The notes under the pieces are model-generated. The model had not been told where the DNA came from, did no database searches, and saw nothing but the letters and a program-made list of their open reading frames with translations. A program made the position numbers and the translations under genes. From sequence record OP114734.1: DNA of 64,000 bases; one strand, written 5' to 3'. Source of the stretch: Escherichia phage vB_ESM-pEJ01. Positions 8,541 through 10,364 of this stretch are shown one piece after another; position 1 is the stretch's first letter, and each line of letters begins with the position of its first letter.

Positions 8541-10364
8541 TTATGACGCCATCCATGCCTTCCTCATGTCTGAATCTTCGCTATAGAGCAAATCGAATAG
8601 CTCTTTATAGTTTTCCGGTAACGTGATGATCTCCATGACAGGATCGTTGATCACGCGATGATAGTCTGATTCTGTGAGCGATGCTAAACCTTTGATATAT
8701 CGAATGTTGTAACCTTTGATATTATCTCGGTCGTTCTCGAAATCTTCTAGGTCATAATACCATCGAACATCATCACCTTTCTTTGGTTCAGCAATGATAA
8801 TAGGTGTTTTGATAAACCGGATTCGTCCATCTTCGAACAATTCAGGCCAACGTGCAAAGAAAGAGATCAGACTAGGTTTAATAGACCCGATCCCGTCGGT
8901 ATCAGCGTCTGTCATAATCGCAATATTTTTGTATTGCATAACTTCCAATGCATCAACACCAAATTGCAAGCCAGTGATCGCCATGATGTTAAAAATTTCG
9001 GCGTTATTAACGATCTTTGCCTCCGGTTGTTCCCACGTTGTAAGAGTTTTGCCTCGCAACGGGAAACCTCCATGTAAATCTTGATCGCGTACAGAGATCA
9101 GATAGTTGATCGCGGAATCACCTTCCGTCAAAAACAGGGTAGTTTCTGCGTCAGTTCCAATAAGGTTAGCTTTAACGTGTTTTGCCACCTTAGCCCGTTT
9201 CGCTGCCTTTGCTGCCTTAGTCGCTGCCGCTTTATCTGCTGCCTCTTTGCGTGCCAAGACTACAGCAATAATAGGCATGATAATGTTTTCTTTCTTCGCA
9301 ATGACTTTAGCCAGCTTTTTAAAATCAAGATCAATATGACGCTTGATATCACCAGTCGGGTTAGTCAAGCGTTCTTTTGTCTGTGAATCAAAACGAAGGT
9401 TAGGCAATTCACGAACAATAAGAATACAGGTCAATCCAGATTTAACCGCAGCTTTAGTAACATCAACCTTATATTCTTTCTTGATTCGTTTTACAATCTC
9501 TTCACAAAGATCATCTGTCACATAATCAACGTGTGTTCCCCCGTTTTTGGTAAACAGACCGTTAGCAAAGGATACTGATTTAAAACCTTCTCCCTCGACC
9601 GCCGGAACTAGGGCAAGTGAAAAGTTTTTATCTTCAATGACAAACGGATCATCATTGTATAGTTTAGCATAATCCTTGAACTTACTAACAATACGTTTAC
9701 CATTAAACTTAAACGTGATCTTAGGAAATATTACGCTCAATGATTGCAGACGATCATGAACAATATCTAAAACAGAGTTGTCCATCATATAACCTTCGAA
9801 GTGGTCGAAGTCTGGACAAAATGTAACCTTCGTTCCCTTCAATTTTGATGGTTTTGATGACCATGTGACATTTTCAGCACCGTTTGTGCATTGAACGGTC
9901 ATTTCTGTTTCGCCGTCACAGGTCACACCAGTAAACCAATCGCTAAAGAAATTTGATAACGACGACCCAACACCGTTCATCCCTTGCGTTAATCGATTGG
10001 TATCATCAAAGTTAGACCCTGCTTTTGTTCGTGTCCATGCGGCTACAGGTTGCGGAATCTGCGTACCCTCTGGGGTAGTAACCATATGTTGAGGAATACC
10101 GCGACCATTGTCTGTTACCGTAACAATATTGTTTTGGATATCGACGCTAATCACATTGGCAAATTCAAAGTTAGTGCGGATCGCCTCGTCTACAGAGTTG
10201 TCGATGATCTCATCAATGATTTTAACCAGTCCAGGAACGTATGAAATTTTTGTCCATTTACCGAACAGGAAACGTTGATGTTCTTCGTAAGTTGTTGATC
10301 CTATATACATTCCTGCACGCTTAAGGACATGTTCACGATCAGATAAAATGCGAAACTCACTCAT
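8541..10364 (-). CDS. 39: DNA topoisomerase II large subunit (GyrB-like), fused gp39+gp60 equivalent
   Basis: 607 aa single ORF; GHKL ATPase and TOPRIM motifs (IIDEIIDNSVDEA, TEGDSA, MTDADTDG). Confidence 0.9.
   Translation of the reverse strand: MSEFRILSDREHVLKRAGMYIGSTTYEEHQRFLFGKWTKISYVPGLVKIIDEIIDNSVDEAIRTNFEFANVISVDIQNNIVTVTDNGRGIPQHMVTTPEGTQIPQPVAAWTRTKAGSNFDDTNRLTQGMNGVGSSLSNFFSDWFTGVTCDGETEMTVQCTNGAENVTWSSKPSKLKGTKVTFCPDFDHFEGYMMDNSVLDIVHDRLQSLSVIFPKITFKFNGKRIVSKFKDYAKLYNDDPFVIEDKNFSLALVPAVEGEGFKSVSFANGLFTKNGGTHVDYVTDDLCEEIVKRIKKEYKVDVTKAAVKSGLTCILIVRELPNLRFDSQTKERLTNPTGDIKRHIDLDFKKLAKVIAKKENIIMPIIAVVLARKEAADKAAATKAAKAAKRAKVAKHVKANLIGTDAETTLFLTEGDSAINYLISVRDQDLHGGFPLRGKTLTTWEQPEAKIVNNAEIFNIMAITGLQFGVDALEVMQYKNIAIMTDADTDGIGSIKPSLISFFARWPELFEDGRIRFIKTPIIIAEPKKGDDVRWYYDLEDFENDRDNIKGYNIRYIKGLASLTESDYHRVINDPVMEIITLPENYKELFDLLYSEDSDMRKAWMAS

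What the first reader, a model, noticed from the sequence alone, without database searches (positions are those of the whole stretch)
8541..10364. Topoisomerase large subunit is one uninterrupted ORF
T4 splits this subunit into gene 39 and gene 60, and gene 60 contains the 50-nt translational bypass. Here a single 607-aa frame covers both parts, so there is no gene 60 bypass element in this phage. A homing endonuclease gene lies immediately downstream.
Basis: established knowledge. Interest (0 to 1): 0.3.

Follow-up and report, generated by a model that had tools for sequence, protein, structure and literature searches.

The report
Unsplit phage topoisomerase gene plus endonuclease
This is the ordinary, unsplit form of the phage topoisomerase II large-subunit gene (gene 39) in an RB49/JSE-like E. 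coli phage, already annotated in close relatives, followed by a small optional HNH homing-endonuclease gene that only some of those relatives carry.

Summary
Window 8541-10364 (minus strand) is one 607-aa ORF. Residues 2-474 align with T4 gp39 (57% identity). Residues 476-606 align with T4 gp60 residues 31-159 (53%). Both alignments are in one frame, with a single codon between them. There is no 50-nt gap, no bypass hairpin, no T4 cassette-specific peptide and no second gp60-like locus in the window. The protein matches the single-chain T6 gp39 cryo-EM structure end to end (E 4.8e-233). Its partner, a gp52 homologue, lies at 1184-2545. The window is a Krischvirus, and RB49, JSE and Phi1 already annotate this same 607-aa gene ("39", "60+39"). 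The literature treats the unsplit gene as the parental state and the T4 split as a MobA-element insertion. The finding is therefore already known. The downstream ORF (7976-8539, 187 aa) is an HNH_3 + AP2 endonuclease. It occurs in 8 of 58 related phage records, on a clean indel of about 560 bp. It always comes with a recoded version of the last ~9 codons of gene 39. This fits a free-standing homing cassette, but cleavage and mobility are untested.

The parts
8541..10364 (-). Gene 39: complete large (GyrB-like) subunit of phage type IIA topoisomerase, 607 aa, uninterrupted
   Evidence: ORF. Pfam domains. PHROG 543, E 3.5e-252. T6 gp39 8ylu_C, E 4.8e-233, single stretch 2-606. RB49 and JSE annotate the same 1824-nt gene.
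9807..10232 (-). GHKL ATPase domain (aa 45-186)
   Evidence: PF02518 HATPase_c, E 6.2e-09. The sequence shows the motifs IDNSVDE, DNGRGIP and GMNGVGSS.
9216..9590 (-). Transducer domain (aa 259-383), including the SQTKERL loop
   Evidence: PF00204 DNA_gyraseB, E 5.4e-17.
8811..9140 (-). Toprim domain (aa 409-518) with E414 (LTEGDS) and D486-x-D488
   Evidence: PF01751, E 3.4e-4, below the Pfam cut-off (21.2 vs 23.1 bits). Codons are listed. The E...DxD metal site is described for T6 gp39 in PMC11461880.
8547..8810 (-). TOPRIM_C region (aa 519-606), the part that T4 encodes in gene 60
   Evidence: PF16898, E 3e-06, just below the Pfam cut-off (27.9 vs 29 bits). 53% identity to T4 gp60 31-159.
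8937..8945 (-). Codons E474-V475-M476: the point that corresponds to the T4 gene 39 / gene 60 split (MobA element 5' junction). It is continuous here.
   Evidence: The BLASTP and tblastn segments end and start here. The MobA insertion site is aa 466-473 in Manning & Atkins.
8889..8894 (-). Codons G491 (GGG) and I492 (ATC): equivalent to T4 gp60 G46/L47, where T4 has the 50-nt coding gap. No gap here.
   Evidence: The hairpin search is negative.
8541..8568 (-). Recoded last ~9 codons of gene 39 (...DSDMRKAWMAS*). This allele is found only with the HNH gene.
   Evidence: There are 15 mismatches to RB49 within 8538-8580, against about 1% elsewhere in the gene. All 8 HEG+ records have this allele, and all 50 HEG- records lose similarity at about 8568. 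Other alleles exist among HEG- phages.
7976..8539 (-). Free-standing HNH_3 + AP2 endonuclease gene (187 aa), a putative homing endonuclease
   Evidence: Pfam HNH_3, E 6.3e-14; AP2, E 1.4e-05, below the Pfam cut-off (25.7 vs 33.3 bits). PHROG 99, E 5e-49. I-HmuI 1u3e and plant AP2/ERF structures match. Window 7980-8537 is absent from RB49. The gene is at >=95% identity in only 8 phage records.
7939..7979 (-). Conserved consensus promoter (TTGACA-16-TATAAT, 7952-7979) overlapping a terminator-like hairpin (7939-7970). The -35 hexamer supplies the TGA stop of the HNH ORF.
   Evidence: The same sequence follows gene 39 directly in RB49.
10395..10454 (-). Promoter-like site (10427-10454, 11/12 match) and hairpin (10395-10427) upstream of gene 39
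   Evidence: These are consensus matches only.
1184..2545 (-). Gene 52 homologue: GyrA-like medium subunit carrying the catalytic AARY tyrosine motif, partner of gp39
   Evidence: PF00521, E 5e-69. T4/T6 gp52 8ylu_A, E 1.2e-144.

Best explanation
The ORF is gene 39 of a Krischvirus (an RB49/JSE-like T4-related E. coli phage). It encodes the whole ATPase-transducer-Toprim subunit of the phage type IIA topoisomerase as one polypeptide, translated conventionally with no recoding. With the gp52 homologue at 1184-2545 it should form a two-subunit (A2B2-type) enzyme like that of T6. This is the parental gene arrangement. T4's gene 39 / gene 60 split and its 50-nt bypass are a derived state caused by insertion of the MobA mobile element, and that element has never entered this lineage's gene. 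Directly after the stop codon sits a separate, unrelated mobile-type gene: a free-standing HNH + AP2 endonuclease. It is carried on a cassette of about 590 bp that also replaces the last ~9 codons of gene 39. I infer that this is an intronless-homing cassette. The nuclease would cut or nick the HNH-less allele near the 3' end of gene 39 during co-infection, and repair would copy the cassette in. The recoded gene end may protect the carrier from self-cleavage. The topoisomerase part is shown; the homing mechanism is inferred.
For: - **Topoisomerase identity and continuity:**
- **Same gene annotated in relatives:** RB49 and JSE ('39'), Phi1 and ECD7 ('60+39').
- **Partner subunit:** the gp52 homologue is present in the window.
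- **Literature:** T6 gp39 is a single chain, and T4 is 'further split' with a ~70-aa Toprim insertion (PMC11461880). The MobA element inserts between aa 466-473 and D490/G491, and relatives without the insert (96-99% identical within the topoisomerase gene) were found for all six bypass-carrying clades (bioRxiv 10.1101/2022.08.31.505936).
- **HNH cassette:**
  - It has HNH_3 + AP2 domains and I-HmuI similarity.
  - It is present in 8 and absent in 50 of 58 Krischvirus records whose flanks are 94-99% identical.
  - The indel boundaries are clean, at 7980 and about 8568.
  - The cassette junction is 100% identical in G37-3 and G5211, whose flanking region is only ~95% identical overall.
  - HNH-AP2 homing-endonuclease genes are already counted in JSE and RB49 by Petrov et al. 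2010 (PMC2993671).
Against: Nothing argues against the topoisomerase reading. Several points weaken the homing inference. No cleavage or transfer data exist for this HNH protein. The end of gene 39 is variable even among HNH-less phages, with at least three further alleles, so the recoded end could mark a recombination hot spot and need not be an immunity determinant. No dedicated promoter or regulatory RNA structure was found for the HNH gene. The Toprim, TOPRIM_C and AP2 Pfam matches fall slightly below the curated cut-offs, although PDB and PHROG matches cover those regions.
Confidence: 0.95

Rival explanations
1. The ORF only looks continuous. It hides an interruption (intein, intron remnant, or MobA 'hit-and-run' scar as in some Aeromonas phages), or it needs recoding.
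For: Manning & Atkins describe full-length topoisomerase ORFs in Aeromonas phages that keep the element-derived C-terminal and N-terminal extension (CTE/NTE) sequences after loss of the element.
Against: The length (607 aa) and the alignment to T6 gp39 are end to end in one stretch. Only one codon separates the gp39-like and gp60-like segments. T4 CTE and NTE peptides give only chance hits, E >= 0.3. There is no bypass hairpin.
Confidence: 0.01
2. The HNH-AP2 ORF is not a homing endonuclease aimed at gene 39. It could be a nuclease with another role (for example exclusion of competing phages at a distant site, or a decaying passenger gene). The recoded gene 39 end would then be just a recombination junction in a naturally hypervariable gene tail.
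For: At least three other alleles of the last ~9 codons occur in HNH-less phages: RB49, ECD7 and Makalu/SSG23. The closest outside relatives (45-46% identity) are in Klebsiella phages; in the one annotated record the gene sits next to the exonuclease subunit 2 gene, a different genomic context. No expression signals specific to the ORF were found.
Against: The ORF is intact, with full-length HNH_3 motif residues (DHIDGN...NL...N), in all 8 carriers at >=95% identity. The specific recoded allele is linked to the ORF in 8 of 8 carriers and 0 of 50 non-carriers. Sporadic distribution in near-identical genomes is the hallmark of free-standing homing endonuclease genes in T4-like phages (PMC2993671).
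Confidence: 0.3

Closest known systems
Gene 39 of phages RB49, JSE and Phi1 (Krischvirus), annotated 'DNA topoisomerase II large subunit' or 'gp60+39'
   Same: Same gene, same 1824-nt length, same neighbours (rIIA ... 39 ... 39.2-like zinc ribbon, dexA, dda), 98-99% nucleotide identity.
   Different: Only point differences. RB49 and Phi1 lack the downstream HNH gene and carry a different allele of the last ~9 codons; JSE has both features as in the window.
T6 (and T2) gp39, the single-chain topoisomerase II large subunit; cryo-EM structures 8YLU, 8YOD and others (Nat Commun 2024, PMC11461880)
   Same: One polypeptide of about 605 aa with ATPase, transducer and Toprim. The alignment is end to end, E 4.8e-233. 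It pairs with gp52.
   Different: A different genus. The BLASTP alignments to the T4 proteins (57% and 53% identity) indicate the distance from the T-even group.
T4 gp39 + gp60 with the MobA element and 50-nt translational bypass (Bonocora et al. 2011, cited; Manning & Atkins 2022)
   Same: Homologous enzyme. The split point and the bypass point map to window aa 474-476 and G491. In both phages a homing-type HNH endonuclease gene is associated with the topoisomerase large-subunit gene.
   Different: There is no split, no bypass and no CTE/NTE extensions. The window's HNH protein shows no similarity to the T4 mobA region. It lies after the stop codon, not inside the Toprim-coding region.
Free-standing homing endonucleases of T4-like phages acting by intronless homing (SegF, SegG, MobE) and the HNH-AP2 class catalogued in RB16, RB43, RB49 and JSE (PMC2993671)
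   Same: A small intergenic endonuclease ORF, sporadic among close relatives, adjacent to an essential DNA-metabolism gene whose nearby sequence differs between carriers and non-carriers.
   Different: This particular protein is uncharacterised. Its cleavage site, double-strand cut versus nick, and transfer have not been measured.

Membership tests
Type IIA topoisomerase B-type subunit (GyrB / ParE / phage gp39 class) | N-terminal GHKL ATPase domain | tested here: met
   PF02518, 36.7 bits, above the 26.4 cut-off, aa 45-186. T6 ATPase domain crystal structure 9imj_A, E 9e-141.
Type IIA topoisomerase B-type subunit (GyrB / ParE / phage gp39 class) | Transducer (DNA_gyraseB) domain with QTK loop | tested here: met
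   PF00204, 62.3 bits, above the 27 cut-off, aa 259-383. SQTKERL is visible in the sequence.
Type IIA topoisomerase B-type subunit (GyrB / ParE / phage gp39 class) | Toprim domain with E...DxD metal-binding residues | tested here: met
   The Pfam Toprim match is slightly sub-threshold (21.2 vs 23.1 bits). E414 and D486-x-D488 are present, and the region aligns with the T6 and T4 structures.
Type IIA topoisomerase B-type subunit (GyrB / ParE / phage gp39 class) | A GyrA-like partner subunit with the catalytic tyrosine encoded by the same genome | tested here: met
   Window 1184-2545 (minus strand): PF00521, E 5e-69; gp52 8ylu_A, E 1.2e-144; AARY motif.
Type IIA topoisomerase B-type subunit (GyrB / ParE / phage gp39 class) | ATP-dependent DNA relaxation activity | not testable with these tools
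   Biochemical assay. Activity is shown for the T4 and T6 enzymes in PMC11461880, not for this protein.
T4-type split topoisomerase with MobA element and gene 60 bypass | Large-subunit ORF split near aa 466-473, with element-encoded C-terminal and N-terminal extensions | tested here: not met
   The frame is continuous across aa 474-476, and CTE/NTE peptides give only chance hits.
T4-type split topoisomerase with MobA element and gene 60 bypass | A ~50-nt untranslated gap after the DxDxDG glycine codon, with take-off hairpin | tested here: not met
   G491 is followed directly by I492. The hairpin pattern is absent at up to 3 mismatches.
T4-type split topoisomerase with MobA element and gene 60 bypass | MobA-family HNH endonuclease between the two halves | tested here: not met
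   No ORF lies inside the gene. The downstream HNH protein has no similarity to the T4 60.1/mobA region (best E 0.65, elsewhere in the T4 segment).
Free-standing HNH homing endonuclease (HNH-AP2 class) | HNH nuclease domain with intact motif residues | tested here: met
   PF13392 HNH_3 matches full length (1-46 of 46), 51.8 bits against a 24.8 cut-off. I-HmuI 1u3e, E 4e-05. PHROG 99, E 5e-49.
Free-standing HNH homing endonuclease (HNH-AP2 class) | AP2-type DNA-binding domain | tested here: inconclusive
   Pfam AP2 scores 25.7 bits, below the 33.3 cut-off. Plant AP2/ERF structures match aa 127-186 at E 9e-06 to 3e-04.
Free-standing HNH homing endonuclease (HNH-AP2 class) | Presence/absence polymorphism with clean boundaries among closely related genomes | tested here: met
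   8 of 58 records carry it. The indel is 7980-8537, plus the recoded 8538-8580.
Free-standing HNH homing endonuclease (HNH-AP2 class) | Site-specific cleavage of the endonuclease-less allele, and super-Mendelian transfer in mixed infection | not testable with these tools
   This requires enzyme assays and phage crosses.

The most novel reading that the evidence does not exclude
The HNH-AP2 gene and the recoded last ~9 codons of gene 39 form one mobile cassette that homes into the 3' end of the topoisomerase large-subunit gene. It would be a second, independent parasite of the same gene that MobA invades in T4. Self-immunity would come from synonymous and conservative recoding of the gene's tail, not from a translational bypass. 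The four alleles of that tail among Krischviruses would then be traces of an ongoing target-site arms race.
Probability: 0.45. Interest if true: 0.3.

Novelty: already known. Interest (0 to 1): 0.1.

Why it matters
It matters little for the main claim. The claim confirms that this phage has the common, ancestral arrangement of the topoisomerase II large-subunit gene, so it offers no new example of translational bypassing. The modest value lies in the neighbouring cassette. It is a clean natural presence/absence pair (window/JSE type versus RB49 type) for testing intronless homing by an HNH-AP2 endonuclease. It also allows a test of whether recoding of a gene's last codons is enough for self-immunity, which would contrast with T4, where polymorphisms alone did not block MobA and the bypass insert was needed.

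Tried and rejected
- **Homology to T4 mobA.** tblastn of the window HNH protein against T4 1-9000 gave no hit in the 60.1/mobA region; the best hit was E 0.65 elsewhere. The two endonucleases are unrelated at the sequence level.
- **Remnant of the MobA element.** T4 gp39 aa 476-516 and gp60 aa 1-30 searched against the whole window gave only hits at E >= 0.3.
- **T4 bypass take-off hairpin.** A search allowing up to 3 mismatches found 0 matches.
- **Second gp60-like gene elsewhere in the window.** None was found beyond a chance hit at E 0.33.
- **RNA structure hiding the HNH start codon or ribosome-binding site.** The fold of 8505-8600 is no more stable than shuffled sequences (z +0.99).
- **Dedicated sigma-70-type promoter for the HNH gene.** None was found. 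Promoter-like sites in the region are no more frequent than in shuffles, 7 against 10.0 +/- 3.3.
- **Recoded gene 39 end as a unique signature of the cassette.** This is only partly true. The allele is exclusive to carriers, but HNH-less phages also show three other alleles, so I lowered confidence in the immunity interpretation.
- **Large protein-database, structure-prediction and metagenome scans.** I did not use them, because annotated near-identical genomes and solved structures already answered the question.

Full report
**1. The observation**

The window has an ORF at 8541..10364 on the minus strand. It starts with ATG and encodes 607 aa. A GAAGAGG Shine-Dalgarno sequence lies 7 nt upstream of the ATG.

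Pfam finds the four domains of a GyrB-type subunit in order: HATPase_c (aa 45-186), DNA_gyraseB (259-383), Toprim (409-518) and TOPRIM_C (519-606). The last two score slightly below Pfam's curated cut-offs. PHROG 543, 'DNA topoisomerase II large subunit', matches aa 2-606 at E 3.5e-252.

Against the PDB, the best hit is the single-chain gp39 of phage T6 (8ylu_C), at E 4.8e-233 in one stretch covering aa 2-606. The artificially fused T4 gp39-gp60 chain (8yo3_C) matches in two stretches. The ORF is real and is far beyond what chance would give.

**2. Collinearity with T4 gp39 and gp60**

I took the T4 genes from NC_000866 and assembled gp60 across its annotated 50-nt gap.

| Window protein | T4 protein | Identity |
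|---|---|---|
| aa 2-474 | gp39 aa 4-475 | 57% |
| aa 476-606 | gp60 aa 31-159 | 53% |

By tblastn the two segments lie at 10370-8943 and 8939-8547, in the same frame, with a single codon (V475) between them. No other gp39- or gp60-like locus exists in the 64-kb window.

The T4 take-off/landing glycine, gp60 G46, lies in the DADHDG|LGS motif. It corresponds to G491 (GGG, 8892-8894) in DADTDG|IGS, and the next codon follows directly.

- The T4 take-off hairpin is absent even with 3 mismatches.
- The parts of T4 gp39 (aa 476-516) and gp60 (aa 1-30) encoded by the inserted element have no counterpart in the window.
- The catalytic Toprim residues are present: E414, D486 and D488. PMC11461880 describes the equivalent metal site in T6.
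- The partner subunit is also in the window, at 1184-2545 on the minus strand. It matches PF00521 at E 5e-69 and T4/T6 gp52 at E 1.2e-144, and carries the AARY motif.

The enzyme here is therefore the two-gene (39 + 52) form, as in T6.

**3. What the window is, and whether this is known**

Window 7500-10800 matches 58 phage records at 90-99% identity. All are Krischvirus or unclassified E. coli and Shigella phages of that type, such as RB49, JSE, Phi1, kvi and GEC-3S.

RB49 and JSE annotate the same 1824-nt gene as '39, DNA topoisomerase II large subunit'. Phi1 and ECD7 label it '60+39'.

Two papers set the context:

- The structural paper on T4 and T6 topoisomerase II states that T4 is 'further split' relative to T6 and carries a ~70-aa Toprim insertion absent from other gp39 homologues (PMC11461880).
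- Manning & Atkins show that the split plus bypass is brought by the ~1.1-kb MobA element. It inserts between aa 466-473 and D490/G491 of the intact gene. For all six bypass-carrying clades they found relatives, 96-99% identical within the topoisomerase gene, that lack the insert (bioRxiv 10.1101/2022.08.31.505936). They cite Bonocora et al. 2011 for MobA activity.

My mapping of the junctions (aa 474-476 and G491) agrees with theirs.

**4. The gene immediately downstream**

ORF 7976..8539 (minus strand, 187 aa) begins 1 nt after the gene 39 TAA stop.

- It has a full-length HNH_3 domain (E 6.3e-14) and an AP2 domain, the latter sub-threshold in Pfam.
- It matches PHROG 99, 'HNH endonuclease', at E 5e-49.
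- It resembles the homing endonuclease I-HmuI over aa 42-122 and plant AP2/ERF DNA-binding domains over aa 127-186.
- It is unrelated to the T4 mobA region.

In the phage collection, only 8 records encode it at >=95% identity: kvi, LF73P4, W115, JSE (two records), FL15, G37-3 and G5211. Everything else is below 60% identity.

Relative to RB49, window 7980-8537 is simply absent. A further 15 mismatches crowd into 8538-8580, the last ~13 codons of gene 39. The rest of the gene differs by about 1%.

Reciprocal searches show that all 8 carriers have the window-type gene end. All 50 non-carriers lose similarity at about 8568 and instead have a contiguous RB49-type junction.

The insert is very economical. 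The stop codon of the HNH ORF (TGA) lies inside the -35 hexamer of a perfect consensus promoter, TTGACA-16-TATAAT. That promoter overlaps a terminator-like hairpin and follows gene 39 directly in RB49.

**5. Mechanism for the downstream gene (inferred)**

The pattern is that of a free-standing homing endonuclease cassette of the 'intronless homing' kind, known for SegF, SegG and others in T4. The HNH-AP2 class has already been counted in JSE and RB49 genomes (PMC2993671).

I infer that the nuclease cuts or nicks the HNH-less allele near the end of gene 39, and that repair from a co-infecting carrier copies in the cassette together with the recoded gene end. The recoded end may confer self-immunity. 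It also introduces a GAGGAAGG motif upstream of the HNH ATG, although at 17-18 nt that spacing is long for a ribosome-binding site. The 1-nt spacing after the stop codon suggests translational coupling.

Several caveats apply:

- HNH-less phages show at least three further alleles of the same ~9 codons: RB49, ECD7 and Makalu/SSG23. The gene tail is therefore a variable spot in its own right.
- No specific promoter or regulatory RNA fold was found.
- No biochemical data exist for this protein.

I put the homing reading at roughly 0.6-0.7 and the specific 'recoding equals immunity' reading at about 0.45.

**6. Verdict**

- **Observation:** confirmed.
- **Interpretation:** supported.
- **Novelty:** already known. 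The same gene is annotated in RB49, JSE and Phi1, and the unsplit state is established as parental.
- **HNH-AP2 cassette:** an uncharacterised member of a known kind and only mildly interesting.
- **Overall interest:** low.

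Noticed in passing
window 8541-8568; L001, L006, L007, L008: The last ~9 codons of gene 39 are hypervariable within Krischvirus, in a gene otherwise 95-99% identical. 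Four alleles were seen...DSDMRKAWMAS* with the HNH gene...DADQRKIWMQS* in RB49...DSDRRKIWMQS* in ECD7, and ...DSDRRKEWMCS* in Makalu and SSG23. ECD7 looks like a mosaic of two alleles.
   Followed up: partly
L004 (G5211) 3374-4102 and L005 (G37-3); equivalent to window 9684-10375: Phage G5211 has a second endonuclease gene (242 aa, Endonuclease VII/HNH-like PHROGs) inserted just upstream of gene 39. Next to it is a patch of about 690 bp, ~25% divergent, covering the 5' third of gene 39. G37-3 carries the same divergent patch but not the endonuclease gene. Gene 39 therefore seems to be flanked by endonuclease insertion sites at both ends.
   Followed up: partly
window 7939-7979 (- strand): A perfect consensus promoter (TTGACA-16-TATAAT) overlaps a 13-bp-stem terminator-like hairpin followed by a T-rich tail. 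The HNH ORF borrows its TGA stop codon from the -35 hexamer. The same element abuts gene 39 in RB49.
   Followed up: partly
window 1184-2545 (- strand): This is the gp52 homologue, the topoisomerase II medium subunit. The listed GTG start gives 453 aa. The PDB alignment begins at residue 11, and an in-frame Met at residue 6 (MNKSV...) may be the true start.
   Followed up: partly
window 7400-7568 vs L003 (JSE): JSE differs sharply from the window and from RB49 in this stretch of about 170 bp downstream of the small ORFs. It shows many mismatches and small gaps, and the RB49p004-like ORF is not annotated in JSE. This is another local mosaic patch.
   Followed up: no
window 10464-10718 (- strand): The mechanical ORF of 84 aa overlaps the end of dexA. 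The zinc-ribbon (FmdB-like, gene 39.2-type) gene annotated in RB49 and JSE is only 174 nt, so the true start is probably the internal ATG (MPLYDY...).
   Followed up: no
window 3583-4584 (- strand): This 333-aa ORF lies where rIIB would be expected, next to rIIA. It has no Pfam match at E <= 0.001.
   Followed up: no
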